From the NCBI GenBank assembly GCA_003482855.1, contig DMXO01000004.1, positions 58,224-122,223 of the forward strand: a DNA stretch of 64,000 nt, given 5' to 3'. This DNA comes from Candidatus Magasanikiibacteriota bacterium. GTDB lineage: Bacteria; Patescibacteriota; Patescibacteriia; Magasanikbacterales; UBA922. Below the pieces are notes generated by a model. That model saw nothing but the letters and a program-made list of their open reading frames with translations. It did not search any database and had not been told where the DNA came from. The translations under genes and the position numbers were made by a program. Below, piece by piece: positions 4,418 through 48,955 of this stretch (positions are counted from its first letter, which is position 1; each line of letters starts with the position of its first letter).

Positions 4418-6199
4418 ATGAAAGAAAATAATAACTTGGAAGCAATGCGCCATTCATGCGAACACGTGCTGACGATGGCCATGTTGCGTATATGGGGGAA
4501 CAAAATTGATGCGGCAATGGGTCCTGCGACGGATGATGGCTTTTATTTTGACTTTGATTCTGACATCAAAATAACTGAAGAGGATTTTTCTAGAGTTGAA
4601 AAGGAAATGGCAAACATTATCAAAGAAAATTTGCCTATTGTTAAAGATGAAATGACCGTATCAGAAGCGAGAGAATTTTTTAATAAAAATATATATAAAG
4701 GGAATGCATATAAACATGAATGGCTTGATGAAATTGAAGGACGCGGGGAAAAAGTGAGTGTGTATTGGATGGGTAAGAAAGATGGAGATATCCCCGATAC
4801 GTTTGTTGATATTTGTGCTGGTCCTCACCTGGAGTCGACGGGTAAAATTGGTGCATTTAAATTGCTAAAAACTGCCGGTGCATACTGGCATGGTGATGAA
4901 AAAAATAAAATGTTGACTAGAATTTATGGTACGGCGTTTGAAAATCAAGAAGAATTGGATAGTTACTTGAATATGCTTGAAGAGGCCAAGAAACGGGATC
5001 ACAAAAAATTAGGCAAAGAACTCGATCTATTTACTTTTTCTGATTTGGTGGGAGGAGGTTTACCTTTGTGGACGCCAAAAGGAACCCTGCTTCGAAATAC
5101 GTTGGATAATTTTGTATGGGAACTGCGCCAAGCTAAAGGTTACCAAAAAGTGACGATTCCACATATTACAAAAAAGGATTTGTACGAAACAAGCGGACAT
5201 TGGGCAAAGTTTTCAAATGACTTATTTAAAATTCAAACAAGAGAAGGTCATGAATTTGCGATGAAGCCCATGAATTGCCCGCATCATACGCAAATTTATG
5301 CACATGTTCCTCGCAGTTATCGCGATTTACCACAGCGTTATGCAGAGACAACCATGGTGTATAGAGATGAACAGACAGGCGAATTGAATGGACTGTCTCG
5401 GGTACGGTGTATTACTCAAGATGACGCCCATGTGTTTTGTCGTGAGTCACAATTGAAGGACGAATTCTATGCAATTTGGGATATTATCGAGACATTCTAT
5501 GCTGCGTGTGGTTTCCCTGCTCTAAAGATTCGGTTATCTTTGTCTGATCCCGAACATATGGAGAAATATATGGGAAGTAGAGAGCAGTGGGATAAAGCGG
5601 AAAGTCAATTGCGAGAGTTTATTTCTGATAGAGGAGCTGCATTTTTTGAGGCAAAAGGTGAGGCTGCTTTTTATGGCCCAAAAATTGACTTCATGGCAAA
5701 AGATTCCCTTGGTCGAGAATGGCAAGTCGCTACTATTCAGGCAGACAGAAGCATGCCAAAGAGTTTTGATTTATTTTGTAACAATGAACAGGGAGAACAA
5801 GAACGAATTGTGATGATACACGCAGCAATCATGGGTTCGATTGAACGCTTTTTGTCGATTTTGATTGAACATTATGGTGGGGCATTTCCTTTGTGGATCT
5901 CTCCGGTTCAAGTTCATTTTGCTCCGGTATCTGCAAAACATGTTGAAGGGACGAAAAAGTTAGCCGAAGAGTTTTCCCAGCTTGGTATTCGCATTGCAGT
6001 TGACGACGCAGATGAGACGGTCGGTAATAAAGTCCGTAAAGCTGTAGCACAAAAAGTTCCATACATTGTTGTCGTGGGCGACAAAGAAATTGCAGGAGAG
6101 GACTGGATGATACGCGTTCGTGGGGTTGAGAAACAAGAGAAGATGAGTAAGGACGAATTTGTGAAGAAAGTAATGGAAGAAATTAAAGAGAGAAAGTAG
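4418..6199 (+). CDS. thrS: Threonine--tRNA ligase
   Basis: 593 aa; class II aaRS motifs, MNCPHH zinc site, TGS/second-additional-domain and anticodon-binding C-terminus. Confidence 0.9.
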   Translation: MKENNNLEAMRHSCEHVLTMAMLRIWGNKIDAAMGPATDDGFYFDFDSDIKITEEDFSRVEKEMANIIKENLPIVKDEMTVSEAREFFNKNIYKGNAYKHEWLDEIEGRGEKVSVYWMGKKDGDIPDTFVDICAGPHLESTGKIGAFKLLKTAGAYWHGDEKNKMLTRIYGTAFENQEELDSYLNMLEEAKKRDHKKLGKELDLFTFSDLVGGGLPLWTPKGTLLRNTLDNFVWELRQAKGYQKVTIPHITKKDLYETSGHWAKFSNDLFKIQTREGHEFAMKPMNCPHHTQIYAHVPRSYRDLPQRYAETTMVYRDEQTGELNGLSRVRCITQDDAHVFCRESQLKDEFYAIWDIIETFYAACGFPALKIRLSLSDPEHMEKYMGSREQWDKAESQLREFISDRGAAFFEAKGEAAFYGPKIDFMAKDSLGREWQVATIQADRSMPKSFDLFCNNEQGEQERIVMIHAAIMGSIERFLSILIEHYGGAFPLWISPVQVHFAPVSAKHVEGTKKLAEEFSQLGIRIAVDDADETVGNKVRKAVAQKVPYIVVVGDKEIAGEDWMIRVRGVEKQEKMSKDEFVKKVMEEIKERK

Positions 6200-6264: not shown

Positions 6265-7089
6265 ATGATACATAAGAAAATTGTCTGGTTTGCAATATTG
6301 ATCACACTTGCTTGTGCAGGTATTATAGTTTTGTCTGTAAAAGAAAAATCGATAGAAAGAATAGAAAAACCAGTTGAAAAAGTCATATACTTTCTTCCTC
6401 ACCAAGACGATGAAATGGTCTTGCTTGGTTCAATTTTCCAAAATCTTGAACAGGGCAAAGATGTATATACCGTGATGGTGACCGACGGTGGCAAGTCGAT
6501 CATTCATGATACTGTAAATGGCGTTGCATTTTGTACATATCATGATCAATATCATAACCCAGATGAGGAGGGCTATTACGAATTAAGTCGAGAAGATTTT
6601 GTACGCGCGCGTAATGACGAATATTTCCGCGCCATGCAATCAATAGGTGTTTCGGAAGATCATATTTTGTTTGCAAATCCAGGTGGCAAAGAAGGAAGCA
6701 CAGAGCTAACATATCGAGACAGCGAACTTACCCAAGCGCAAGCACTTGAAGTTATTCAAACTTTCTATCATATGCTCGGGGATGGGACATATATCACGCT
6801 CGCAAGTGAAGCTATTGAATCTGATTACCCACATAGTGATCACATTGCTATTGAACGTGCTTTGAAAGAGTTTAATGGAATTCAAACCAAGTTATTTTTT
6901 GCTGACCGAGAAAATCCTGCGTTTGTCATAGAATTATCTGGAGACGCGCAAAAAGCAAAAGCGCGTGCTTTACAAGAATATACTGTATGGAAACCAGAAG
7001 AAGGGAAATTTATGATTGGAGGGCATTCGATTTTGGACCGGTTGAAATTGTGGGGAGAAAGTAAGAGGGAGTATATGATTGGAAATTAA
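6265..7089 (+). CDS. PIG-L/LmbE-family N-acetylglucosaminyl deacetylase
   Basis: N-terminal TM helix then LPHQDDE motif (PIG-L HxDDE) and conserved His/Asp downstream; 274 aa. Confidence 0.6.
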   Translation: MIHKKIVWFAILITLACAGIIVLSVKEKSIERIEKPVEKVIYFLPHQDDEMVLLGSIFQNLEQGKDVYTVMVTDGGKSIIHDTVNGVAFCTYHDQYHNPDEEGYYELSREDFVRARNDEYFRAMQSIGVSEDHILFANPGGKEGSTELTYRDSELTQAQALEVIQTFYHMLGDGTYITLASEAIESDYPHSDHIAIERALKEFNGIQTKLFFADRENPAFVIELSGDAQKAKARALQEYTVWKPEEGKFMIGGHSILDRLKLWGESKREYMIGN

Positions 7090-7171
7090 GATATTGGATA
7101 TCAAAATTGTTCTATTGTTAAATTGTTATACTGTTGACGACGCAGCTCGGAAGGGCTGTTTTTTGTTTTTG

Positions 7172-7215
7172 ACAAGTGACACTTGACTAATACGGATTTT
7201 TATAGTATATTATGC
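7172..7215 (+). promoter_or_regulatory. Sigma70-like promoter (TTGACA/TTGACT ... TATATT) for GC-rich gene 1
   Basis: TTGACT at 7187, 17-nt spacer, TATATT; AT-rich, unlike the GC-rich CDS it drives. Confidence 0.5.
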
Positions 7216-7220
7216 CATTA

Positions 7221-7268
7221 AAAAAGAACGAAATAGTCTTATTTTTTGTAGTACTATTTCGCTCTTTT
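7221..7268. promoter_or_regulatory. Imperfect 16-bp inverted repeat AAAAGAACGAAATAGT / ACTATTTCGCTCTTTT (operator-like), followed by a short GC hairpin and strong SD
   Basis: Read directly; one mismatch; motif AAAAAGAACGAAA recurs at 8153 upstream of GC-rich gene 2. Confidence 0.45.
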
Positions 7269-7344
7269 TACAGTCTACCTGACAAACAGTAATTTCCCCT
7301 TCACCTATGAAAGGTGACGGGCTCAAGAGAAGGGGGTTTCGTAG

Positions 7345-8001
7345 ATGCTTCAGATCCACGACAGAAAGATCTCCGCGGTTCGCGCGGGGATGCTCCAGGG
7401 TCACTGTGGGGCCATGACCCCACTGTTCTTGACCACACATGATGGTCTTCGTGTGGTGGAGTACCTCCAAGGCATCGCGCGTTCGTTTTCGTGGTCGGAG
7501 GTGCCGTCGCTCCTGGATCAGATCACGGCTCTTCGTCTGCCCGCGGACGACGAGATGTTCGGTCGCTGGCTCGACCAGATCGAGCCGACCGGGCGCTCGG
7601 AGATCACGATCGCACGTGGTCAGATCAGAGGCGACGTTTACGTCGCCGCGTTCCCTGTGCGTGAGGGTCGTCCGATGACCGACGCGCCGATCTACTCCTT
7701 GACCCAGGCCATAGAGTTCGCCCGGGTTTGGTTCTCGGAGGGGAGGATCACCACGGCCGAAGTCATCCACATGATCAAGGGTCTGCACGCCCTCGGGCTT
7801 GGCACGCAGGCCCCGCAGGCGGTCCTTCGGGTGTTCAACACCGACGAGATCATCTCTCGTGCCCAGCTGGGCCTCCGGGTCTTCGCGGCGCGGGAGTTCA
7901 CCGGTGACGATCTCGCGCTCATGGAGCAGATCGCGGTTCGGAAGCGGTGCTTCAAGACCGCATTCCCGGGCCGGGAGTACGAGGCATTTCCTGGGCTGTA
8001 G
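7345..8001 (+). CDS. Hypothetical protein, GC-rich cassette 1 gene A (218 aa)
   Basis: Strong G/C bias at third codon positions on + strand, SD AGAAGGGGG 6 nt upstream of ATG; opposite-strand ORFs are GC artefacts; no recognised motif. Confidence 0.6.
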   Translation: MLQIHDRKISAVRAGMLQGHCGAMTPLFLTTHDGLRVVEYLQGIARSFSWSEVPSLLDQITALRLPADDEMFGRWLDQIEPTGRSEITIARGQIRGDVYVAAFPVREGRPMTDAPIYSLTQAIEFARVWFSEGRITTAEVIHMIKGLHALGLGTQAPQAVLRVFNTDEIISRAQLGLRVFAAREFTGDDLALMEQIAVRKRCFKTAFPGREYEAFPGL

Positions 8002-8124
8002 TCAGGCGAGAGTCTCGCGCTAGATGTCGTACCTGCTGAAGAGTGGGTATGGTAGAGGCGCGTGGCTTGGCGTGGCTGGCGATGTGCGATTCTGTCGCGC
8101 GTCGTCGGCCGGGCCTGACTCTTG

Positions 8125-8141
8125 TGCACATTTAAAAATGT
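8125..8141. promoter_or_regulatory. Perfect palindrome CACATTT-aa-AAATGTG upstream of GC-rich gene 2, followed by AAAAAGAACGAAA motif
   Basis: Read directly; 7-bp arms, 2-nt spacer; lies in an AT-rich intergenic segment between two GC-rich CDSs. Confidence 0.4.
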
Positions 8142-8253
8142 GTAGAAGAGTCAAAAAGAACGAAACGAGTTCATCAAAGTGGATTATTTTGGTTCTTTTG
8201 TGTTTTGTGTCATTCGCTAACTTCCTGCCCGTGGGCAGGTGAGAGGAGGACTC

Positions 8254-8796
8254 GTGAAGAAGAAGCTGTATCTCCAGACCGAGTACAACCCGCGTGGTAT
8301 CGTGGGGTGGTTCGAGGTCTGGAGCGAGAGGGGGCAACTCCTCTCGAAGACCCTCAAGTTCGGGGATATCGCGGCGGCGCGTCTCATCGCCCTGCCCATG
8401 CTCGTCGATGAGGGTCACGAAGACCTCGTCGCCGAGGGGTCACGGATCATCGACGTGCTCATCGAGTGGCTCCGAACGAACCAGATGGGGGGGACCGTCA
8501 CCTTCTCGTTTCAGGACGGCCGTCCGAAGATCGAGGAGAAGTACGTCCCTAACCGTCGACCGGAGCCTTCTCCGTCGAGATTCTCGGCCGTGATCGGCGG
8601 TCGAGACGGTCTTCGGTTCCGACCAGTCGGCAGCGGCGTCCCTGAGCTCACGCTCGGTGGGCTTTTCCGCTACCTCCGCCAGGCCGGCGTGGCCACTGAG
8701 GTCGACGAGAGGCGGTGGCGGGTTGCCGTCGGCGACGGGGACCCGGAGGACGAGGACATGTCCGGGGGCGGCGACGACCCGGCGTGTGGCGACTAA
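8254..8796 (+). CDS. Hypothetical protein, GC-rich cassette 1 gene B (about 180 aa)
   Basis: SD GAGAGGAGGA at 8241-8250 then GTG at 8254 (ORF track starts at alternative GTG 8239); GC3-biased; hairpin CCTGCCCGTGGGCAGG just upstream; acidic Gly/Asp-rich C-terminus. Confidence 0.55.
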   Translation: MKKKLYLQTEYNPRGIVGWFEVWSERGQLLSKTLKFGDIAAARLIALPMLVDEGHEDLVAEGSRIIDVLIEWLRTNQMGGTVTFSFQDGRPKIEEKYVPNRRPEPSPSRFSAVIGGRDGLRFRPVGSGVPELTLGGLFRYLRQAGVATEVDERRWRVAVGDGDPEDEDMSGGGDDPACGD

Positions 8797-8931
8797 GTGT
8801 CTCTTGTCGCGTCTGCTACGGCGGACGCGACGGAGCATGAGACTACCACAACAATGGCCGGCGCGTGTGATTCATTCGCACGTCGCCGGCCAAGGAGTTC
8901 AGTATATATTTGGGATAAAAATATATAGTGA

Positions 8932-8963
8932 ACTAAAAACAACCGCTTTGTTGGTTGTTTTTT
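8932..8963. terminator. Bidirectional rho-independent terminator (AACAACC...GGTTGTT flanked by A and T runs)
   Basis: Hairpin with T7 run on + strand and T-rich run on - strand; sits between the end of GC-rich gene B and the end of ahcY. Confidence 0.6.
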
Positions 8964-8989
8964 TGTAACGTGTTTTGTATTACATGAAT

Positions 8990-10402
8990 TTAATACCGAT
9001 ACCACTCGCTCTTAAACGGCCCTTTTTCATCTATACCAATATAATTTGCTTGTGATTTTGTGAGTTTGGTAAGTTTTACTCCAATTTTTTCCAAATGCAA
9101 TCGCGCCACTTCTTCATCCAAATGTTTTGGTAATCTGTATACACCGATTTCGTACTTATTTTTCCATAAATCAAGTTGAGCAAGCACTTGATTGGTAAAA
9201 CTATTGCTCATGACAAAACTTGGATGACCAGTTGCACAGCCAAGATTCATGAGACGGCCTTCCGCGAGCATATAAATTGCTTTACCATTTGGCATGATAT
9301 ATTTATCGACTTGAGGTTTTATATTTATTTTTTTCACGCCTTTTGTTTTATTCAATTTTTCAACTTGGATTTCATTGTCAAAATGTCCAATGTTTGACAC
9401 GACTGCTTGATCTTTCATTTTTTTCATGTGTTCGACCGTAATAACTTCTTTATTTCCTGTCGCAGTAACATAAATATCTGCTTCGCCAAGTGTATCTTCT
9501 ACTGTTTTTACTTCATATCCTTCCATAGCAGCTTGCAATGCACAAATAGGATCAATTTCAGTGACAATGACACGCGCACCTTGCCCGCGTAGAGCTTGGG
9601 CGCATCCTTTACCAACCTCGCCAAACCCGCATACAACTGCGACCTTGCCGCCGATCATGACATCCATTGCGCGATTGAGTCCATCGATGACTGAATGACG
9701 GCAACCATAGATATTATCAAATTTTGATTTGGTAACAGAATCATTCACGTTAATTGAAGGGAAAAGAAGTTTTCCTTCTTTTTCCATTTGATACAAGCGA
9801 TGCACGCCGGTTGTTGTTTCTTCGCTCACGCCTTTTACTTGTTTGGCAACTGCAGTCCAGCGAGTTTTATTTTTTGCATATTCTGTTTTCAATAATTTCA
9901 TCAATTCTCTAAAATCCTCTTGCTCTTTTGAATAATTTTTTTGCAATAATTTTGGATCTGATTCTACCTCAACGCCTTTATGGATCATCATAGTAGCATC
10001 TCCTCCATCGTCAACAATCATGTTAGGACCTTTGCCATTAAAATCCAATGCTCTCTCTGTGCACCACCAATATTCTGCAAGCGTTTCACCTTTCCACGCA
10101 AACACGGGGACTTTTGAATCGCGAACCACTGCTGCGGCTGCATGATCTTGCGTAGAAAAAATATTGCAACTTGCCCATCGTACATTGGCACCAAGCGCTT
10201 TCAATGTTTCAATTAAAACAGCTGTTTGGATAGTCATGTGCAAACTACCCATGATATTTACATTTTTTAGTGGTTTTTGTTTCGCATATTTTTTGCGAAT
10301 TGTCATAAGACCTGGCATTTCTTGTTCTGCGATGTCTATTTCTTTTCTACCCCAGTCGGCGAGTTTGATGTCTTTTATTTTAAATTCAAATTTTTTTGTC
10401 AT
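8990..10402 (-). CDS. ahcY: Adenosylhomocysteinase (S-adenosyl-L-homocysteine hydrolase)
   Basis: NAD-binding [15 protein letters not shown], conserved DDGGD and catalytic regions; start taken at MTKKFEF (ATG 10402) rather than the upstream in-frame extension. Confidence 0.9.
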
Positions 10403-21754: not shown

Positions 21755-21845
21755 TGGCGGAGAAGGCGGGGTTCGAACCCGCGGTACGGTTTCCCGCACA
21801 CCACTTTTCGAGAGTGGCACCTTAAACCAGCTCAGACACTTCTCC
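21755..21845 (-). tRNA. tRNA-Ser (anticodon CGA), CCA encoded
   Basis: rc reads GGAGAAG..D arm..CCACT-CTCGAAA-AGTGG anticodon stem-loop (CGA), long variable arm, T arm GGTTCGAACCC, 3' CCA; 91 nt. Confidence 0.85.
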
Positions 21846-22423: not shown

Positions 22424-22440
22424 ATATTTATGGTTGGAAT

Positions 22441-22475
22441 GGTAGTCGGGTACGCGAGGTGCGTACCCGACTACC
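22441..22475. terminator. Perfect 15-bp stem hairpin GGTAGTCGGGTACGC-gaggt-GCGTACCCGACTACC just 3' of the rSAM gene
   Basis: Read directly; no strong U-run follows, so possibly an attenuating or processing hairpin rather than a full terminator. Confidence 0.5.
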
Positions 22476-22478
22476 TGC

Positions 22479-23576
22479 TTAATCCTCCTTGAGGTGGGGT
22501 AGCGGGCACAGGGTGTATCCGCCACAGGGGTCACCCATACCCTCGACCGTCGCGCGGCAACCACCGCGGCACTTGTCCCAGCGGTCGCACGAGCCACATG
22601 GCTCGCCGACGGTCTCCTGGGTCAGGGCGAGGCGCGAGCAGATCAGGTCGGACTCGTACGCCGCCCGGATGGGGTCTGGGTCGTCGACGTGACCGAGCGG
22701 GACCGTGGAGTTCGAGCACGCACGGATGCTTCCGTCGACTGCGAAGTATAGCCCCTTGTCGTAGAAGGGACATGAGCCGAACAGGTGGGGCATGAGTACT
22801 GCGGCTCGTGGGTTTTTGAATTCCGGCCAGAGGCCGTCGTCCATGGCCGAGGCGGAGGACTGCATGTAGTCGCGTCCCTGGTGCTCGAGCGTGCGGATCA
22901 AATCCGCAAGCTCCTCGGGCGTCGGCGCGACCTCGAAGTACTCCGGTCCGACCGGCTCGCCCGAGCCCATGAGCTCGAGATCCACACCGATTCCCCTCAT
23001 CCTGCAGAACCGGATGTAGTCGGGCACGAGCGCGATGTTGTCTTTGCGGATCAGATTCTGGAGCCGGAACAGCGGATCGCGATATCCGACCCCGCAGAAC
23101 ACGTCGATCGCCGTGCGCATCTTGCGCGCCATGTCGACGGTCGATCCAATCATCTGTACCTGGAGGCGTATTTGGTCGGGGTCGTTCGAGTCGGCGATGT
23201 TCCACTTGCCGGTGATGTGCACGCGGCGCTCGTAGAGCCAGGCGGCGAGTTCGGGCGTGATCGAGATCATGTTGGTGAACACCCACGGTTTGATGCCACG
23301 GGAGATGAGGATCTCGATGTATTCCTTGAGGTGGGGCCACAGGAGTGGCTCTCCGCCGAGGATGTCCATGGTCTCGAGCTCAGCGCCACGGTATTCGCGA
23401 CAGAGGTCGAGAATCCGAACCGCCTGGTTGAGTGTCATTGATCCGTTGCCCAGCTTGTCACGGCGCACCATATAGCAACCAGGGCATCGGAGTTGACAGC
23501 GCGAGGTCACTTCGATGATGCCGTAGCGTAGGCCGGCCCCGGTCTTCTCTTCGTAGCGCTTGCTGATGTCAGTCAT
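22479..23576 (-). CDS. Radical SAM enzyme with C-terminal SPASM/twitch domain (peptide/protein-modifying rSAM maturase-like), GC-rich
   Basis: CxxxCxxC (CQLRCPGC) near N-terminus; C-terminal CGSCDRWDKCRGGC Cys cluster; start at MTDISKRYEE (ATG 23576) overlapping the stop of the upstream 119-aa gene. Confidence 0.8.
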   Translation of the reverse strand: MTDISKRYEEKTGAGLRYGIIEVTSRCQLRCPGCYMVRRDKLGNGSMTLNQAVRILDLCREYRGAELETMDILGGEPLLWPHLKEYIEILISRGIKPWVFTNMISITPELAAWLYERRVHITGKWNIADSNDPDQIRLQVQMIGSTVDMARKMRTAIDVFCGVGYRDPLFRLQNLIRKDNIALVPDYIRFCRMRGIGVDLELMGSGEPVGPEYFEVAPTPEELADLIRTLEHQGRDYMQSSASAMDDGLWPEFKNPRAAVLMPHLFGSCPFYDKGLYFAVDGSIRACSNSTVPLGHVDDPDPIRAAYESDLICSRLALTQETVGEPCGSCDRWDKCRGGCRATVEGMGDPCGGYTLCPLPHLKED

Positions 23577-23928
23577 GTCGTTCTCCTTGGTTTTGGCACC
23601 ATGCTTCCATTTCGTGCATGATGCGATTCCATTCCTCTTCGTTTCCTGAGCGGTGGATGTACTGGTAGTTGGGAGTATCTTCGACAATTTCTATTTTTTT
23701 CCGTATGTTCTCCCTTCTTTCTCGAGGTCGTTTGTCGTCCACAGAAGGCCAACATCGGTTGAACCATGTAGCGAATACCACTTCGCCGTCCTGTTTGAGG
23801 ACAACGATGTCGTCGCCGTGTCCATAAAAGAGTACATTGACCTCAGTGGTCGGATCCTCTTTGATCAGACTAGCTACGGTTTGCCATGTCTTATTCAAGC
23901 TTGGCAGATCCCAGATGCTTTTCTTCAT
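23569..23928 (-). CDS. Hypothetical 119-aa protein, translationally coupled to the rSAM-SPASM gene
   Basis: SD AAGAGG 6 nt upstream of ATG 23928 (MKKSIWDL...); stop overlaps rSAM start (ATGACTGA); intermediate GC. Confidence 0.55.
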   Translation of the reverse strand: MKKSIWDLPSLNKTWQTVASLIKEDPTTEVNVLFYGHGDDIVVLKQDGEVVFATWFNRCWPSVDDKRPRERRENIRKKIEIVEDTPNYQYIHRSGNEEEWNRIMHEMEAWCQNQGERHD

Positions 23929-23958
23929 GTCGTACCTCTTGGGTTGTGAAATGAACAA

Positions 23959-24240
23959 GAATGGCCGCAGCTTTCTAAGCTATTGCCGTGCGGCACTTGT
24001 AGGTTCTGCCCCTGCAACTCGTTGGTTCACTACCACGTGTGATATCTTTTCACCAAAGTACCTTTTGTAAATAAAAAATCGCCTTTCAGCGATTGGACGA
24101 CCTCAAAGTAAACTAACCCATTGGCTGTTTACCCGAGGCCTTTTGTGTGATGTAAATTATTTAAAAATATATAGTTCATAGTGTTATAATGTATTAACAC
24201 ATTAATACATATTTTATCTTATGTCAAATAAAGACTGTGG
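23959..24240 (-). promoter_or_regulatory. Promoter (TTGACA ... TAATGT) plus ~290-nt structured leader with intrinsic terminator (ATCGC-tgaaag-GCGAT-TTTTTT); candidate attenuator/riboswitch
   Basis: Read on - strand: -35/-10 near 24215-24185, leader hairpin CCUCGGGUAAAC/GUUUACUUUGAGG, then terminator hairpin + U6 at about 24075-24098, then 140 nt to the ATG. Confidence 0.4.
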
Positions 24241-44178: not shown

Positions 44179-45660
44179 TTAGTGCTTGGAGACTAGAAAA
44201 GGTTTCATTAGGTTTTTTATTTTTATGAAGTTTTGGTTTGCGTTGACCTCGACTATATCACCAGTTTGAAAAAATTTTGTCGCTGAACCAGTACCCACGA
44301 TACAAGGCACTCCGAGTTCACGCGACAGTATAGCAGCATGACACATTATTCCACCTTGATCTGTCACTATTGCCCCAGCCAACCTCATAGCCGGTACATA
44401 TTCAGGGCTAGTCATGGTTGTAATCAACACCTCACCCTTTTTAATGTTTTTAATTTCATTAGCTTCGCGAATGATCCTTACTCTGCCAGTATAAGAACCA
44501 GCTGATGCTGTCACTCCCAAAAGCAAAGATTTTTTATTTTTTATTTCTTTTTTGTGCCCTACTAGGATTTTGTTTGCTTTTACACCTAAGAACATTTCTA
44601 CTTTATTTTTATTAAAAACAAATAAGCTATTTTTGCTTCTATCTTTCAAAACATCTTCTCTCGTTAAGACATTGTTTAATAAGGCTGATTTCAATTCTTC
44701 TGGCAAATGATATTGTATCAATTCGCGCCTAGTATTTAATCTTTTGGAAATTTCTTCAAGCAAACCAATGATATGATAATGTACCAAAGTGAATTTTTCT
44801 TTTTTATAATCCTGTAAGTAAGATGCCAGACGCAAGTTATTAAATAAATTTTTATGTGTCCTGTCAACTTTATGTTTTTTTTCTAAATTTGTTTGCTGTT
44901 TTCGCAATTCCTTAGAATATTTTTTGCTAGTTAGTAAACGATTTTTCATGTCACCTTGTTTTAGAATACGATCTAAAATCACAAAAAAATATTTTTCATC
45001 CCACAAGTCTAAGCCATAATCATAAGGCACCCAAGAATATTTTTTAGTGTGTATTTTTATAGCTTCCGTCTGGTCCTTAATTTTTTTATTTTTTATTTTT
45101 AAAGCAATATTTAACAAATCATCCTCTTCTTCTTTGGCAAAAGATTTTTTTTGTGGTGCTGAAAGAATTGAATAGGTGGCTGTTAATTCTTCAGGATTAA
45201 AAATTTTTTTGCTTAAATATTTTTTTAAATAACTGCCTAATGATTCTTCCAAACCTAAAACCACCGGTTCACTCCACGGGTAAGCAGCCGTGTATAATGT
45301 AAAATACTTAGAAAACACCTGCCAAAGTTCCTGATTGGTCTTTTTACTTAGATTGGTTTTATAAATACTAAAAGCAAATTTATTTAGGTGTAACATTTTT
45401 TGATTATATTTTTTGATTATATTATCCAAAAAATTTTTATCTTTTTTAACTAATAACAAAGTTTGTTTGTTTACTTTATTTACTCTCGCTTCCGATGCGT
45501 ACCAATACATTATGCCATCTACATATTGTACTAGGGTAATACCAAAAGACAAGCCGAGTGAATCTTTCATGTGTTCACTATAAGATTGAGCAATTATATA
45601 AGCATTAGGTATTAAATGAATCCCTTCTTTTTGCTGCATGAAAATATAATCCTTATTCAT
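44179..45660 (-). CDS. Protein with C-terminal PEP-utilising-enzyme mobile (phosphohistidine swivel) domain; N-terminal region unassigned
   Basis: C-terminal GGIMCHAAILSRELGVPCIVGTG matches the PpsA/PPDK/EI mobile-domain His motif; 493 aa. Confidence 0.65.
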   Translation of the reverse strand: MNKDYIFMQQKEGIHLIPNAYIIAQSYSEHMKDSLGLSFGITLVQYVDGIMYWYASEARVNKVNKQTLLLVKKDKNFLDNIIKKYNQKMLHLNKFAFSIYKTNLSKKTNQELWQVFSKYFTLYTAAYPWSEPVVLGLEESLGSYLKKYLSKKIFNPEELTATYSILSAPQKKSFAKEEEDDLLNIALKIKNKKIKDQTEAIKIHTKKYSWVPYDYGLDLWDEKYFFVILDRILKQGDMKNRLLTSKKYSKELRKQQTNLEKKHKVDRTHKNLFNNLRLASYLQDYKKEKFTLVHYHIIGLLEEISKRLNTRRELIQYHLPEELKSALLNNVLTREDVLKDRSKNSLFVFNKNKVEMFLGVKANKILVGHKKEIKNKKSLLLGVTASAGSYTGRVRIIREANEIKNIKKGEVLITTMTSPEYVPAMRLAGAIVTDQGGIMCHAAILSRELGVPCIVGTGSATKFFQTGDIVEVNANQNFIKIKNLMKPFLVSKH

Positions 45661-45665
45661 AAAAT

Positions 45666-47132
45666 CTAATTATTGTTTTGTGGAGTTAAAATTCTAACTG
45701 TGCCATGATTGGCTCGCACGGCCACAATATCACCGGTTTTAATTTGGGTAGTGGCAGTATGAGTATTTATTATACACGGCTTACCAGCCAAGCGAGCGTT
45801 AATAGCTGCATGACAGAGCATGCCTCCAGCATTGGTCACTATAGCTCCGGCTTTTTTTATAATTTCTATCATAGTATCGTCAGTCATTTCTGCAATTAAA
45901 ATTTCTCCAGTTTGAAACTTTTTTATATCTTCTTTTTTTTCTATCACCCGAGCAACTCCCTGAGCATAACCCTGAGCTCCAACTTTTCCCGCTACTGAAT
46001 GCCCCAGTTCACTTTGCTGTAAAATTTCCTGCAATTCTTCATAAACTTTTTTAACCTCTATTCCTTCAATTATTTTATAATCTTTGCCTAATATAGAAAG
46101 CAATAAACCCTGATTAAATCGATTTTTCAAAGTCTGTTTTTTAATTAGACCATGCAACAAATTATCCAATTCTTCAAAAGTTAAAAAATATAAAAAATCT
46201 ATTTCTATTCCAGTAATTTTTTTTAGTCGTTTAAATACTTTATTCCACAATTCTTGAATTTGCAAATTCACTGTTTGTCGATACTCACGCCATTGTCCCA
46301 ATTCTTTAAAAAATTCCAAAGGATTGGCGCTTAATTTATATTTTTTCAAAATCGTTTTAATAAACTGGTGATGTCTCTTGGCGCGCGCCATTGTCTCTTT
46401 GGTACGCTGGCTTTTGTCCAAAATATTTTCACTAGTCAAAAGTTCGGCAATTTCTGCTTGAGTAAAATTATAAATCTTACCAATTCGCGCCACTTCTTTA
46501 TTATCAAATCCCAAATCAAAGCTATCAATAAAAATTGCCGTGGACCAAAATTTTTTCAAAGTATTTTGCCACTGCTCTAAAAAATTCAACAATTCATTAA
46601 CACCCCATTCTAACGGAAAATCAGTTGCGTATTCCTGGCAAAAGGCTTCTACCTTTTTGCCATAATCAAAAAGACTTTCTTTTAACTCAAAATGTCGCCG
46701 ACTTAATTCTCCATATTCTTTATAAACTGCCTCTGCCATTTCTGCAAATGAGGAGGTAGTATGCCAAAAAACTTCACACACGCCATTTTTAAAATAAACA
46801 TCGCAAGTGCCCAAACCCTCATCAAAAAACTTTGGATTAGGATGAATAATGCCTGCAATTCTAGGCCAAAAAATTATAGGACTTAAATTCAGTACTTGGC
46901 GATACATTTTGGGAACACTTCCTTCATTTTGTTTGGATTCAAATTCTACTATATCAGTAATATCAAGGCCATAACGTTCACAGAGCCGGTCTAAGGTAGA
47001 AAACCACACCCCATCGGCTTTGCCATGAAAAAGTGCTGTAACAGTATTGCGATTTATACCAGTTTCTTGGCTAATTTCAGAGATATTTTTACCCAGTTTT
47101 TTCGCTACAGTATGTATTTTTAACTTAATCAT
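45666..47132 (-). CDS. Paralogous PEP-utilising mobile-domain protein with N-terminal HTH (XRE-like)
   Basis: N-terminal HTH KKLGKNISEISQETGINRNTVTALFHGK; C-terminal GGMLCHAAINARLAGKPCIINTH swivel-domain motif; start taken at MIKLKIH. Confidence 0.65.
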   Translation of the reverse strand: MIKLKIHTVAKKLGKNISEISQETGINRNTVTALFHGKADGVWFSTLDRLCERYGLDITDIVEFESKQNEGSVPKMYRQVLNLSPIIFWPRIAGIIHPNPKFFDEGLGTCDVYFKNGVCEVFWHTTSSFAEMAEAVYKEYGELSRRHFELKESLFDYGKKVEAFCQEYATDFPLEWGVNELLNFLEQWQNTLKKFWSTAIFIDSFDLGFDNKEVARIGKIYNFTQAEIAELLTSENILDKSQRTKETMARAKRHHQFIKTILKKYKLSANPLEFFKELGQWREYRQTVNLQIQELWNKVFKRLKKITGIEIDFLYFLTFEELDNLLHGLIKKQTLKNRFNQGLLLSILGKDYKIIEGIEVKKVYEELQEILQQSELGHSVAGKVGAQGYAQGVARVIEKKEDIKKFQTGEILIAEMTDDTMIEIIKKAGAIVTNAGGMLCHAAINARLAGKPCIINTHTATTQIKTGDIVAVRANHGTVRILTPQNNN

Positions 47133-47225
47133 AATGTAAGTATTTATAAGCATATTATAGTATATTTATATAATTTTGTCAATATTTCACAGTTTTTGTA
47201 ATGATTTCATTACAAAAATGTACAT

Positions 47226-47320: not shown

Positions 47321-48955
47321 ATGAAGGCTTTCATCGTTGCGTTGATCTCGGCGTTTTGGCAGCTGTTCGGGTCGCATGGGGTTCGGGTTGCCTTGATCCA
47401 GCCGGTGCCACGGCTCAGGTCAAAATCTTTGGGAATTTTCAAGTCCCCGGAGAGTATTCAGGCCCTCGCGGGCCAGCTCGAGGCATTCGGATACAACGTG
47501 CGGATGTACCACTCATCCACAGGCTGGGGCATGATGATCAGGCTCCTGTTATTCAACCCTAACGTGGTCGGGGTCAGTACTATGACCCCAAATTTCCTCG
47601 AGGGGAAGCGGATCGCTCAGCTCCTGAAGCTGTGGCGACCTCGTCTTCCCATTGTGCTCGGAGGCTGGCATGCCTCGGGCGCGATCCAGGCTCACCTCCA
47701 TGGGCAGGAGAGCGAGAGTCTTGGGGAGATTCTCAACCCGAACTCGCCATTCGACTACGTCGTGGCGGGCGAAGGGGAAGAGATCTTCCCCAGGCTCATC
47801 GCGAGCCTGCTCGCGGGGAAGGAGGTCGAAGCCGAACCCGGCGTTAGCATCTTCCGCAATGGGGAGATCCAAGTCGGCGGCTCAACCCCGAGGATTACCA
47901 ACCTCAGGGAGATTGCTGAGCCCTCGTGGAGCGGACTCAAGATTAAGCGCTACCGAGACAAACGTTCCGGAGCGCTCGATCTGAGCGTCCACTTTAACCG
48001 ATCGTGTCGGTTTCAGTGTGCGTTCTGCTCAACCCCCACGGTGTACGGCCATGGGGTGAGGGTGACGCCTGCCCTGCAGGCGTTCGCCTACTTGAAAAGT
48101 GTGGTGGTGACCCACCGCCCACAGGTCATTACTTTCACCGACGAGGACTTCTTCGCCCACATGTCGTGGGTAGAGGAGTTGGTCAGCCTCCTCGAAACCG
48201 ACAACCTCGCAAAGCAGTTTGGAGTGTCGTTTGATACTTTTGCGAGCATCAACGACATCCACCGGCTCCGCAAGGCCGGCAAGGGATATTTCCTCGATCG
48301 TATGCGGGCGGTCGGGTTCGGAAGCTTCACGATCGGGGTTGAGAGTTTCAATCCCAACATCCTCCTTGCTTACAACAAGGAGATGATGATCCTCCCGACG
48401 ATGAGCCGGGAAGAGCGTGGGACCTACACGGGACTCGACAACGATCAGAAGAAGCGCGCACTCGTCACTCATTACCGCAAGCGGACCCAGGAAGCGATCA
48501 ACTTCGCTTCCGAACACGGCCTGCTGGTAGTCGGCGACTACATACTCGGCAACCTCGGCGAAAGCGTGGAGGACGTGCGAGCGGGTTTCGAGATTTTCAA
48601 AAACCTCGAAAACCTGCTTCTCGCATACATCCCTGTCTTCACACCGTTCCCGGGCACCAAGATCTGGGGCGACGCCTACTCGTCGGGTCTGCTCCCGCGC
48701 AACCCTGACGGAAACATTGACTGGATGCGCTTCAATGCATCAGCCGGGGCTCTCAACCTCGGTTACGACATCGGAGCGCTCCGCAATGAGCTCGAGATTG
48801 AGTTCTACACGTCCAGCCGCTACCGGCGAGACATGCTGAAAAACTTGGAGAGCACCCCTGCTCTCCGTGGCCTGTTCGTGGGCCGCTTCAGCTATCTCGG
48901 CCGACTGTTTCCCGGCGACGTCCGCGTCCGGGAAATGATCCAGCTACTGGGCTGA
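47321..48955 (+). CDS. B12-binding-domain radical SAM enzyme (class B rSAM, methyltransferase-like), GC-rich
   Basis: N-terminal cobalamin-binding Rossmann-like region (VVGVSTMTP...IVLGGWHAS), radical SAM CxxxCxxC (CRFQCAFC); start at ATG 47321 after SD. Confidence 0.75.
   Translation: MKAFIVALISAFWQLFGSHGVRVALIQPVPRLRSKSLGIFKSPESIQALAGQLEAFGYNVRMYHSSTGWGMMIRLLLFNPNVVGVSTMTPNFLEGKRIAQLLKLWRPRLPIVLGGWHASGAIQAHLHGQESESLGEILNPNSPFDYVVAGEGEEIFPRLIASLLAGKEVEAEPGVSIFRNGEIQVGGSTPRITNLREIAEPSWSGLKIKRYRDKRSGALDLSVHFNRSCRFQCAFCSTPTVYGHGVRVTPALQAFAYLKSVVVTHRPQVITFTDEDFFAHMSWVEELVSLLETDNLAKQFGVSFDTFASINDIHRLRKAGKGYFLDRMRAVGFGSFTIGVESFNPNILLAYNKEMMILPTMSREERGTYTGLDNDQKKRALVTHYRKRTQEAINFASEHGLLVVGDYILGNLGESVEDVRAGFEIFKNLENLLLAYIPVFTPFPGTKIWGDAYSSGLLPRNPDGNIDWMRFNASAGALNLGYDIGALRNELEIEFYTSSRYRRDMLKNLESTPALRGLFVGRFSYLGRLFPGDVRVREMIQLLG

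What the first reader, a model, noticed from the sequence alone, without database searches (positions are those of the whole stretch)
7140..8970. Cassette 1: two GC-rich hypothetical genes sharing an AAAAAGAACGAAA-containing operator architecture
Genes at 7345-8001 and 8254-8796 have no motif I can assign. Each is preceded by an AT-rich element containing AAAAAGAACGAAA as part of an inverted repeat (7221-7268; 8153-8200 with GTTCTTTT partner). A short GC hairpin (TCACCT-atgaa-AGGTGA; CCTGCC-cgtg-GGCAGG) sits immediately before a strong SD. An extra CACATTT-aa-AAATGTG palindrome lies at 8125-8141. Downstream are two 8-bp GC hairpins (GTCGCGTC...GACGCGAC; GGCCGGCG...CGCCGGCC) and a terminator. 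The shared motif suggests both genes answer to the same DNA-binding regulator or share a leader RNA structure.
Basis: seen in the sequence. Interest (0 to 1): 0.7.

Follow-up and report, generated by a model that had tools for sequence, protein, structure and literature searches.

The report
Hairpin-framed GC-rich gene cassettes
Two very GC-rich orphan genes sit in a variable spot of an AT-rich Magasanikbacteria (CPR) chromosome, and the repeated AAAAAGAACGAAA motif is one arm of a conserved RNA stem-loop that starts each gene's leader rather than a DNA operator; what the proteins do, and why they stay GC-rich, is unknown.

Summary
The window is a Candidatus Magasanikbacteria chromosome of about 38% GC. 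Genes A (7345-8001) and B (8254-8796) have GC3 of 0.80-0.82, against about 0.31 in the host genes.

AAAAAGAACGAAA occurs exactly twice in 64 kb. Both copies form the 5' arm of an A-tract/U-tract stem-loop, H0. The first H0 starts 8 nt after the -10 of a good sigma-70 promoter (7183-7211).

Related genomes carry the same locus between thrS (or a PIG-L gene) and ahcY, with different gene content: A only, B only, or A plus other genes. In them H0, an anti-SD/GC-hairpin/SD helix and a 150-nt triple-hairpin 3' UTR are kept through compensatory changes. G.U pairs far outnumber A.C pairs, so these are structures of the sense RNA, not DNA operators. No Rfam family matches.

A has only four relatives among 1.8 billion representative proteins, and B has one. 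No Pfam, PHROG, PADLOC or PDB fold assignment was found.

The A gene tree conflicts with the host tree, which points to allele replacement. GC3 stays at 0.73-0.80 although synonymous sites are saturated, and I cannot explain this.

Best reading: exchangeable accessory genes framed by cis-acting RNA modules that stabilise mRNA ends, attenuate transcription and mask the SD.

The parts
7142..7165 (+). Intrinsic terminator of the upstream PIG-L-family gene (6265-7089)
   Evidence: GC stem followed by a T-run, found by the terminator scan. dG is -10 kcal/mol.
7183..7211 (+). Sigma-70-type promoter P: TTGACT, 17-nt spacer, TATATT
   Evidence: 10 of 12 matches to consensus, the best site in 6900-9200. 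Equivalent TTGACA-17-TATGTT/TAGGCT promoters sit at the same place in L079, L009 and L016. Predicted only; no transcript data.
7220..7270 (+). H0-A, the leader stem-loop. The AAAAAGAACGAAA motif (7221-7233) is its 5' arm and 7253-7269 is its 3' arm. It has an A-tract and a U-tract and looks like a terminator.
   Evidence: Fold (dG -17.3). It starts 8 nt after the -10. Covariation. Strand asymmetry.
7294..7336 (+). Anti-SD (TTCCCCTT, 7294-7301), GC hairpin (7301-7317) and SD (AAGGGGG, 7330-7336)
   Evidence: Consensus fold of three orthologous leaders. The anti-SD/SD helix has 6 pairs, 3 of them changed on both sides. The hairpin has 6 pairs, 3 changed on both sides.
7345..8001 (+). Gene A, 218 aa, GC3 0.80, an orphan family
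8002..8152 (+). Structured 3' UTR of A: H1 compound hairpin 8010-8068, H2 conserved GC hairpin 8074-8110, H3 AT palindrome inside an outer stem 8117-8152. The closing helix pairs TCAGG (8002-8006) with CCTGA (8114-8118).
   Evidence: z = -9.3. Across 3 genomes 96% of cells pair. 13 of 59 pairs changed on both sides, against 5.0+-1.6 in shuffles (0 of 500). Slid controls give 31-49%. 31 G.U against 3 A.C.
8153..8200 (+). H0-B, the second copy of the leader stem-loop (motif 8153-8165), directly abutting H3 and followed by TTTTGTGTTTTGTG
   Evidence: dG -14.8. R1 scores 54.8 bits on + against 21.6 on -. No consensus promoter was found between A and B.
8224..8249 (+). GC hairpin CCTGCCcgtgGGCAGG and the SD GAGAGGAGG of gene B. 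The 3' side of the stem runs into the SD.
8254..8796 (+). Gene B, 180 aa, GC3 0.82, with an acidic C-terminal tail
   Evidence: There is no homologue at protein-search level. A syntenic relative in L016 is split into two ORFs, 28% and 50% identical. No family hits.
8800..8933 (+). Structured 3' UTR of B: H1 8800-8842, H2 8856-8891, H3 8897-8933
   Evidence: z = -10.2. Across 8 cassette ends, 15 of 29 H2+H3 pairs changed on both sides. R2 scores 80.8 bits.
8935..8964 (+). Intrinsic terminator closing the array
   Evidence: AAAAACAACCGCtttgtTGGTTGTTTTTTT. Orthologous terminators are present in L009, L079 and L016.

Best explanation
Region 7140-8970 is a small array of two exchangeable accessory genes at a variable spot of a Candidatus Magasanikbacteria chromosome, between thrS/PIG-L and ahcY.

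**Proposed working**
- One sigma-70 promoter (7183-7211) starts a transcript whose first nucleotides form H0, an A-tract/U-tract stem-loop. The repeated AAAAAGAACGAAA is H0's 5' arm.
- A CU-rich anti-SD, a short GC hairpin and the SD then form a helix that masks the ribosome-binding site.
- After each ORF come three hairpins: H1, specific to the gene; H2, a GC hairpin with conserved sequence; and H3, an AT palindrome inside an outer stem.
- The second H0 abuts the H3 of gene A, so B is probably reached by read-through or processing at the H3|H0 junction.
- I infer that these modules act in cis on the RNA. H0 would cap the 5' end against 5'-dependent decay and/or act as a leaky terminator. The H1-H3 hairpins would block 3' exonucleases and define the mRNA ends. 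The anti-SD helix would limit translation.
- The repeated modules also provide homology for gain, loss and replacement of cassettes.

**Shown versus inferred**
- Shown: the elements themselves, their conservation by covariation, their sense-strand polarity, the variable gene content of the locus, and the conflict between the A tree and the host tree.
- Inferred: the transcription start, co-transcription of B, and every functional role.
- Unknown: what the proteins do.
For: **Host and synteny**
- Searches place the window in Magasanikbacteria and show the same locus in related genomes.

**Locus variants**
- Window: P-H0-A-3'-H0-B-3'-T.
- L079: P-H0-A-3'-T.
- L016: P-H0-B'-3'-T, without A.
- L009: P-c1-junction-H0-A'-3'-T, plus another cassette.
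- L083: x-junction-A-3'-P-y.
- The two 13-nt repeats bracket exactly the segment that L016 lacks. L016's H0 resembles H0-A in its 5' arm and H0-B in its 3' arm.

**Promoter**
- One search finds the promoter. The 8-nt gap between -10 and H0 is the same in the window and in L079.

**RNA structure**
- Leader: 91% of cells pair. 10 pairs changed on both sides, against 4.0+-1.5 in shuffles (1 of 500).
- A 3' UTR: 96% of cells pair. 13 pairs changed on both sides, against 5.0+-1.6 (0 of 500). Slid controls give 31-49%.
- H2+H3 across 8 cassette ends: 15 of 29 pairs covary.

**Sense-strand polarity**
- G.U against A.C is 31:3 in the 3' UTR and 17:7 in H0.
- The covariance model scores + well above - at every copy.

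**Terminator likeness of H0**
- H0 dG is -11 to -17 kcal/mol, the same range as local terminators.
- The next-best R1 hits are ordinary terminators.

**Genes and exchange**
- The genes are truly coding: GC3 > GC1 > GC2, dN/dS is 0.31-0.40, and the AF2 model is confident.
- Allele exchange: the L009 and L079 hosts are about 95% identical in AhcY and ThrRS, but their A proteins are 34% identical. The divergent block runs from H0 to H1.
Against: - No transcript data exist. The TSS, co-transcription of B and any processing are predictions.
- Only 3-8 sequences support each structure, and they are related. The shuffle control does not fully remove phylogenetic signal.
- The stabiliser and attenuator roles for H0 cannot be separated. 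A 5' cap role needs a new 5' end at 8153, and no promoter or cleavage site is shown there.
- H2 is conserved in sequence, not only in structure (GGYCGGCGCGTG...CGTCGCCGRCC). This hints at a specific binding partner that I cannot name.
- Nothing explains why the ORFs and H1/H2 remain GC-rich while H0, H3 and the terminator remain AT-rich.
Confidence: 0.55

Rival explanations
1. DNA operator. The AAAAAGAACGAAA inverted repeats and the CACATTT/AAATGTG palindrome are binding sites of one dimeric transcription factor that co-regulates A and B.
For: The motif is sequence-conserved in 4 of 5 H0 copies. It lies next to the promoter. TrmB-family regulators are encoded a few kb upstream.
Against: - The element lies downstream of -10, inside the predicted transcript.
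- The inner stem covaries without keeping its sequence.
- Only 71% of cells are Watson-Crick as DNA, against 86% as sense RNA.
- The arms are 17-24 bp with a loop of about 5-15 nt, unlike usual operators.
- The second copy has no promoter to regulate.
- The AT palindrome changes sequence completely between genomes while keeping its pairing.
Confidence: 0.08
2. Site-specific recombination cassettes, integron-like or carried by a hairpin-recognising ssDNA transposon. H0 and/or H2-H3 would be recombination sites folded as ssDNA, and the cassettes would be moved by a recombinase encoded elsewhere.
For: - Gene content varies between genomes at one head position just behind a fixed promoter.
- 13-nt direct repeats bracket cassette A.
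- The same junction (H2-H3-H0) joins different genes in the window (A to B) and in L009 (c1 to A').
- The A tree conflicts with the host tree.
Against: - No integrase, transposase, HUH or RT domain is recorded within about 10 kb on either side (precomputed Pfam).
- There are no GTTRRRY/RYYYAAC cores in the junctions.
- The H2 motif occurs only at this locus in GTDB species representatives and JGI metagenomes.
- The G.U excess favours RNA over ssDNA.
- Homologous recombination between repeated modules explains the variants equally well.
Confidence: 0.12
3. A recent horizontal acquisition from a GC-rich donor, with no special architecture. The hairpins would be the donor's own GC-rich terminators and the repeats leftovers of a tandem duplication.
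For: - The compositional boundaries are sharp.
- The window holds two further GC-rich islands.
- The B12-radical-SAM family of island 3 is GC-richer than its host in six genomes, each time in a different neighbourhood. This looks like a graded amelioration series.
Against: - The whole unit, including its AT-rich H0 and H3, is conserved at the same site in at least four lineages whose synonymous sites are saturated (dS 1.1-2.9). GC3 nevertheless stays at 0.73-0.80.
- The structures covary, so they are under selection.
- A and the radical SAM family have relatives only in CPR/DPANN, not in GC-rich phyla.
Confidence: 0.2

Closest known systems
5'-terminal stem-loop mRNA stabilisers (E. coli ompA 5' UTR, B. 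subtilis aprE and ermC leaders). They block RppH/RNase E or RNase J1 entry at the 5' end. This comparison rests on established knowledge and was not tested here.
   Same: H0-A is a stable hairpin that begins within about 1-3 nt of the predicted 5' end. The spacing to the -10 is conserved, and the stem is kept by covariation.
   Different: H0 also carries a U-tract like a terminator. Its second copy is internal to the presumed A-B transcript, so it would need a processing step that has not been shown.
Leader attenuators and intrinsic terminators with A-tract/U-tract (bidirectional type)
   Same: An A-run, an AU-rich stem with 3-4 G-C pairs, and a U-run. dG is -11 to -17 kcal/mol, like the genuine terminators of these genomes. 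The next-best hits of the H0 model are terminators.
   Different: No upstream sequence is available to form an alternative anti-terminator. No associated antiterminator protein or ligand-binding domain was identified.
REP/BIME elements and phage T7 intercistronic RNase III sites, which act as 3' hairpins that stabilise upstream mRNA segments
   Same: GC-rich hairpins without U-tails follow each ORF. H2 has a conserved sequence that recurs after unrelated genes. One junction separates two cistrons.
   Different: There are only two copies per 64 kb, and both are confined to one locus. No RAYT transposase is present. No conserved GTAG head was seen by eye; this was not searched formally. RNase III cleavage is untested.
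Phage 'morons' and genomic islets: autonomous promoter-ORF-terminator units whose composition differs from their surroundings
   Same: Sharp GC contrast, each unit's own promoter and terminator (L083 and the c3 cassette of L009 each have their own promoter), and insertion between conserved genes.
   Different: The locus is chromosomal, not in a prophage. There are no viral relatives. The units share conserved UTR scaffolds and persist at one site across lineages.
Integron gene cassettes with attC sites
   Same: A promoter-proximal array of unrelated small ORFs in one orientation, with structured, sequence-variable palindromes at cassette ends and variable content between relatives.
   Different: There is no IntI nearby, no R''/R' core sites, and the polarity fits sense RNA.
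SD-sequestering translational control elements, such as RNA thermometers and simple anti-SD helices
   Same: A CU-rich stretch pairs with the SD across a small hairpin in three orthologous leaders, with compensatory changes.
   Different: No ROSE or fourU sequence signature was noted, and Rfam gives no hit. The trigger is unknown.

Membership tests
   H0-A starts 8 nt after the -10 hexamer. H0-B has no consensus promoter nearby. The promoter itself is a prediction.
   The inner stem changes sequence but keeps its pairing (7 of 23 pairs changed on both sides). G.U exceeds A.C by 17 to 7.
Integron cassette / attC | An IntI tyrosine recombinase adjacent to the array | tested here: not met
   No recombinase domain appears among the precomputed Pfam hits for genes from -10 kb to +10 kb. 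The rest of the genome was not examined.
Integron cassette / attC | R'' (RYYYAAC) and R' (GTTRRRY) core sites at the cassette boundaries | tested here: not met
   A regex over 8002-8254 and 8797-8990 finds none.
REP/BIME with RAYT | Tens to hundreds of dispersed copies per genome, and a RAYT gene | tested here: not met
   There are two copies in 64 kb. The H2 pattern matches only this locus in the GTDB representative and in JGI contigs, and R2 finds no further copies. The exact pattern may miss diverged copies.
Any Rfam family (riboswitch, known leader, sRNA) | A score at or above the family's gathering threshold | tested here: not met
   The whole window at gathering threshold gives only a tRNA. 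Region 7100-9000 at E<=10 gives hits of at most 24.5 bits against thresholds of 40-211.
Intrinsic terminator / attenuator | A stable stem followed directly by a U-tract | tested here: met
   The core stem of H0-A has dG -11.1 and is followed by UUUUU. That of H0-B has -9.6 and is followed by UUUUGUGUUUUG. The simple scan did not call them, because their loops exceed its 3-8 nt limit and they have few G-C pairs.
Intrinsic terminator / attenuator | Transcripts end at the U-tract, with regulated read-through | not testable with these tools
   This needs Term-seq or in vitro transcription.
Known protein families for A and B (Pfam, PHROG, PADLOC, PDB) | A significant profile or fold match | tested here: not met

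The most novel reading that the evidence does not exclude
These may be an undescribed kind of exchangeable cassette in CPR bacteria. A GC-rich ORF would be bracketed by a conserved 5' stem-loop and a 3' triple-hairpin scaffold. The scaffold would serve two purposes. It would make each mRNA unusually long-lived, with capped ends and a GC-rich body in an AU-rich transcriptome. It would also act as the homology or recognition handle through which alleles and whole cassettes are swapped between lineages. The GC-richness would be actively maintained, either by GC-biased conversion at a recombination hotspot or by selection for RNA stability, rather than being a fading trace of transfer.
Probability: 0.2. 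Interest if true: 0.75.

Novelty: new variant of a known kind. Interest (0 to 1): 0.5.

Why it matters
**What is new**
- The finding defines two RNA structures supported by covariation that match no Rfam family: a leader stem-loop with an SD-masking helix, and a 150-nt triple-hairpin 3' UTR.
- It also defines two orphan protein families restricted to a few Magasanikbacteria.

**The open question**
- Genes with GC3 of about 0.8 persist at one locus of genomes with GC3 of about 0.3, across lineages whose synonymous sites are saturated.
- At the same time, alleles are exchanged in blocks bounded by RNA-structure modules.
- If the GC-richness is maintained rather than transient, the locus becomes a compact natural test case. 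It could be used to study GC-biased conversion or selection on mRNA stability in uncultivated, reduced-genome bacteria.

**If it is simply repeated import**
- The locus then points to an unsampled GC-rich gene pool that feeds CPR genomes.

**Practical use**
- The scaffold motifs give a handle for finding more such cassettes.

Tried and rejected
- **Motif as a regulon marker.** There is no other copy in the window. The H0 covariance model finds no further copy in 185 kb of window plus related loci.
- **H2 as a dispersed repeat.** Scans of GTDB species representatives and JGI metagenomes returned only this locus (L016/L075, the L009-type contigs and L054). The other roughly 55 hits were chance matches in genomes of 55-72% GC.
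- **Known RNA families.** None matched.
- **A and B as diverged paralogues.** BLASTP shows no similarity.
- **Strain variation as the cause of contig breaks near 8206.** All contigs are identical to the window, so the breaks are assembly artefacts at the hairpins.
- **Within-cluster variants for polarising substitutions.** There are only 1-2 amino-acid differences, too few to use.
- **Long non-coding RNA instead of genes.** Rejected on codon-position GC, dN/dS below 1, an indel-free 218-codon alignment and a confident fold.
- **Transfer from a GC-rich phylum, such as a CPR host bacterium.** Relatives of A and of the island-3 radical SAM enzyme are found only in CPR/DPANN.
- **Literature.** Two full-text searches found nothing on GC-rich cassettes in CPR.
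Full report

Yes. Reading 6900-9300 and listing ORFs shows gene A at 7345-8001 (218 aa) and gene B at 8254-8796 (180 aa). B starts with GTG, 4 nt after the SD GAGAGGAGG (8241-8249).

The composition profile shows a host background of about 38% GC with three sharp islands of 58-63%. They lie at 7.3-8.9 kb (this finding), 22.4-23.9 kb and 47.3-49.0 kb.

By codon position, A and B have GC3 of 0.80 and 0.82. ThrRS, the PIG-L-family gene and AhcY next door have 0.31-0.35. GC3 > GC1 > GC2 is the signature of real coding sequence shaped by GC pressure.

AAAAAGAACGAAA is exact at 7221 and 8153. With one mismatch allowed there are 4 hits against 0.31 expected. One of these is the motif's own hairpin partner at 7257-7269.

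Only the coordinates of the AT palindrome are slightly off: it lies at 8127-8142.

**2. Where the window comes from, and what lies at this site elsewhere**

Exact-protein look-ups place the window in Candidatus Magasanikbacteria, a CPR/Patescibacteria lineage from groundwater. Identical contigs occur in several samples.

Gene A has only one relative by indexed search (52% identity). A full HMMER pass over 1.84 billion representatives with an A+A' profile adds three more. B has no relative by protein search.

Every Magasanikbacteria relative of A whose flanks are on record lies at the same chromosomal site, between thrS (or a PIG-L gene) and ahcY. The gene content there differs:

| Genome | Arrangement |
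|---|---|
| Window | P-H0-A-[H1 H2 H3]-H0-B-[H1 H2 H3]-T |
| L079 (GCA_002869205.1) | P-H0-A-[H1 H2 H3]-T |
| L016 (JBAYJP01) | P-H0-B'-[H1 H2 H3]-T; no A; B' split into two ORFs |
| L009 | P-c1 (94 aa)-[H1 H2 H3]-H0-A'-[H1 H2 H3]-T, then a further promoter and an acidic-repeat gene c3 |
| L083 (flanks unknown) | gene x-[H2 H3 terminator]-P-H0-A-[H2 H3]-terminator-P-gene y |

All of these ORFs are GC-rich, and all of the junctions are AT-rich.

**3. What the repeated motif is**

The best sigma-70-like site in the region is TTGACT-17-TATATT at 7183-7211. Equivalent promoters stand in the same position in L079, L009 and L016.

The A-run that opens the motif begins 8 nt after the -10 in both the window and L079. 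The stem-loop H0 (7220-7270) is therefore predicted to start at about +1 of the transcript.

H0 has these properties:
- It is 17-24 bp long and rich in A-U pairs, with dG of -11 to -17 kcal/mol.
- An A-tract forms the 5' side of its base and a U-tract forms the 3' side.
- Genuine terminators in these genomes have dG of -10 to -17.
- A covariance model of five H0 copies picks ordinary terminators as its next-best hits.

Across the five copies, 7 of 23 pairs changed on both sides. The imperfections are mostly G.U in the sense strand (17 G.U against 7 A.C). Only 71% of cells are Watson-Crick pairs, against 86% allowed as sense RNA. The model scores the + strand 17-33 bits above the - strand at each copy.

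This is what a transcribed RNA hairpin looks like. It is not what a protein-binding DNA palindrome looks like.

**4. The rest of the leader**

In the three orthologous A leaders the consensus fold contains H0 and a second element.

For the whole leader:
- 91% of cells pair.
- 10 pairs changed on both sides, against 4.0+-1.5 in shuffles (1 of 500).
- Slid controls give about 50-55%.
- The anti-SD/SD helix has 3 of 6 pairs with double changes.

B's hairpin (8224-8239) likewise extends into its SD. The 'GC hairpin before a strong SD' is therefore best read as part of an SD-masking structure. With three sequences, and a purine-rich SD column set, this part is supported only moderately.

**5. The 3' ends**

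Both 3' regions are exceptionally structured, with z of -9.3 and -10.2 against dinucleotide shuffles. Each holds three domains:
- H1, a long GC hairpin specific to the gene.
- H2, a 16-18 bp GC hairpin with recognisably conserved sequence after unrelated genes: GGYCGGCG(A)YGTGYGATTC..TCGYRCGTCGYCGRCC, with a bulged U in four of the six Magasanikbacteria copies.
- H3, an AT-rich palindrome enclosed by a short outer stem. Its sequence changes completely between genomes while its pairing is kept.

For the A 3' UTR in three genomes:
- 96% of 174 cells pair.
- 13 of 59 pairs changed on both sides, against 5.0+-1.6 in shuffles (0 of 500).
- Slid controls give 31-49%.
- There are 31 G.U against 3 A.C cells, again showing sense-RNA polarity.

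Across eight cassette ends, 15 of 29 H2+H3 pairs covary.

No Rfam family matches. The H2 pattern was scanned through GTDB species representatives and JGI metagenome contigs. It occurs only at this locus, and all other hits are chance matches in GC-rich genomes. The H2+H3 model finds no further copy in 185 kb of window plus related loci. These are locus-specific modules, not a dispersed repeat family.

**6. How the pieces fit**

Three elements are found at the end of the array (window B, L009 A', L016 B', L079 A):
- H2;
- H3;
- the terminator.

At internal junctions the order is H2-H3-H0. The window's A-to-B junction aligns with L009's c1-to-A' junction, although different genes are joined.

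No consensus promoter lies between A and B. B is therefore probably expressed by read-through of H0-B, or after cleavage at the H3|H0 boundary. In the window these two elements abut with no spacer.

The two 13-nt repeats bracket exactly what L016 lacks. L016's single H0 looks A-like in its 5' arm (GAACGAAATAAG) and B-like in its 3' arm (TTATTTTG...). This fits loss or gain of cassette A by recombination between H0 copies. It rests on a few nucleotides and is only suggestive.

**7. The proteins**

- A is under purifying selection (dN/dS 0.31-0.40).
- With five sequences, A gives a confident AlphaFold model (pLDDT 83, pTM 0.82).
- Pfam, PHROGs, PADLOC, a PDB sequence profile, phage tblastn and an IMG/VR scan are all negative for A and B.
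- A and B are not detectably related to each other.
- B has an acidic tail. Its L016 relative is split by a stop codon and an inserted hairpin.

Function is unknown. Fast-evolving, lineage-restricted small proteins at a variable locus in an episymbiont would fit host-interaction, immunity or defence roles. That is conjecture.

**8. Evolution and the unexplained GC contrast**

The L009 and L079 hosts are close. AhcY is 94.9% and ThrRS 95.3% identical at the protein level, and the flanking DNA is 80-95% identical. Their A proteins are nevertheless only 34% identical, while the more distant window genome (AhcY 81%) has an A that is 52% identical to L009's.

A sliding comparison shows that the divergent block runs from H0 to the end of H1. 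High identity resumes at H2-H3-terminator. This pattern indicates block-wise allele replacement rather than drift in place.

Every allele keeps GC3 at 0.73-0.80, although synonymous divergence is saturated (dS 1.2-1.8 for A and 1.1-2.9 for housekeeping genes). The AT-rich H0 and H3 travel inside or beside the GC-rich block.

Island 3's B12-binding radical SAM enzyme offers a parallel:
- Its relatives are found only in CPR and DPANN.
- In six genomes the gene is 6-23 GC points richer than its surroundings.
- It sits in a different neighbourhood each time.

That looks like import from a GC-rich pool internal to CPR/DPANN, with graded amelioration. The donor is not in the databases I could search.

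For locus A, three explanations remain open, and I could not separate them:
- repeated import;
- GC-biased conversion at a recombination hotspot;
- selection for GC-rich, stable mRNA.

Within-population variants are too few to polarise.

**9. Verdict**

The 'operator of a common DNA-binding regulator' and a wider regulon are not.

The most likely mechanism is a set of cis-acting RNA modules:
- a 5' stem-loop that caps the mRNA end and/or attenuates transcription;
- an SD-masking helix;
- a triple-hairpin 3' end.

These modules frame each of two exchangeable GC-rich orphan genes, and their repetition also mediates cassette gain and loss. Integron attC, REP/RAYT and known Rfam families were tested and not met.

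I rate this a new variant of a known kind: moron-like or islet accessory genes with structured UTRs. Interest is moderate. It is raised by the persistent GC contrast and the well-supported new RNA structures, and limited by the unknown function and the narrow distribution.

Noticed in passing
window 22440-23930 (- strand): Second GC-rich island. It holds a radical SAM/SPASM-like enzyme (22479-23576, GC3 0.81) and an overlapping upstream 119-aa ORF (23569-23928, GC3 0.53). A 15-bp GC hairpin follows directly at 22441-22475, only about 16 nt before the start codon of the next host gene. A tRNA gene lies about 600 bp away at 21758-21845 (-).
   Followed up: partly
window 23929-24200 (- strand): The leader of island 2 is about 240 nt long. 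It contains a palindrome that overlaps the predicted -10 (ATGTATTAAtgtgTTAATACAT), a long stem, and a terminator-like hairpin (AATCGCtgaaagGCGATTTTTT, near 24073-24094). The distal part has z = -4.1. It is a candidate attenuator or riboregulator with no Rfam match.
   Followed up: partly
window 47321-48955 (+), with L087-L091: Third GC-rich island, holding a B12-binding radical SAM enzyme. Its relatives occur only in CPR and DPANN. In all six genomes examined the gene is GC-richer than its surroundings (0.46-0.61 against 0.38-0.43), each time in a different neighbourhood.
   Followed up: partly
window 47193-47218: A perfect 12-bp-arm palindrome, TTTTTGTAATGA-tt-TCATTACAAAAA. It lies between the divergently transcribed gene 45666-47153 (whose N-terminus looks like an HTH domain by eye) and the island-3 radical SAM gene. 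This is a more plausible true operator than the element in the finding.
   Followed up: no
L087 about 5790-5860 and L088 about 5880-5940 (upstream of the radical SAM homologues): The leaders share an interlocking pair of complementary segments (CGAGAAA..TCTTGT ... TTTCTCG.TCTTTAACAAGA). This may be a conserved leader RNA. It is absent from the window's island-3 leader.
   Followed up: no
window 4418-6199 compared with L009 7448-9238: ThrRS is only 46.5% identical between the window genome and L009/L079, while the adjacent AhcY is 81% identical. This suggests that thrS was replaced by a distant version in one lineage.
   Followed up: no
window 44500-47000: An unusually AT-rich stretch (GC 0.28-0.34) holding two roughly 495-aa genes on the - strand, immediately upstream of GC-rich island 3. 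It may be another foreign segment, of opposite composition.
   Followed up: no
L009 11046-11594: Third cassette of the L009 array. It encodes a 182-aa protein with a hydrophobic N-terminus and tandem acidic Pro/Glu/Ala-rich repeats, has GC3 of 0.89, and has its own promoter and structured leader.
   Followed up: no
L016 2927-2960: The B homologue is interrupted by a stop codon followed by a perfect hairpin (CTGGACGGGacaaaatCCCCGTCCAG). It therefore encodes two ORFs that correspond to the N- and C-terminal parts of window B.
   Followed up: partly
window 8206 (ends of contigs L005 and L006): Two independent metagenome assemblies break at the same base, just after H0-B, yet match the window up to that point (0 and 2 mismatches, both outside this locus). 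This is probably an assembly artefact caused by the inverted repeats, not strain variation.
   Followed up: yes
L079 531-1397: Another GC-rich island (0.60-0.65) in the related genome. It encodes a 288-aa protein with no Pfam hit, upstream of the pilus-ATPase gene cluster. GC-rich orphan genes therefore recur in these genomes.
   Followed up: no
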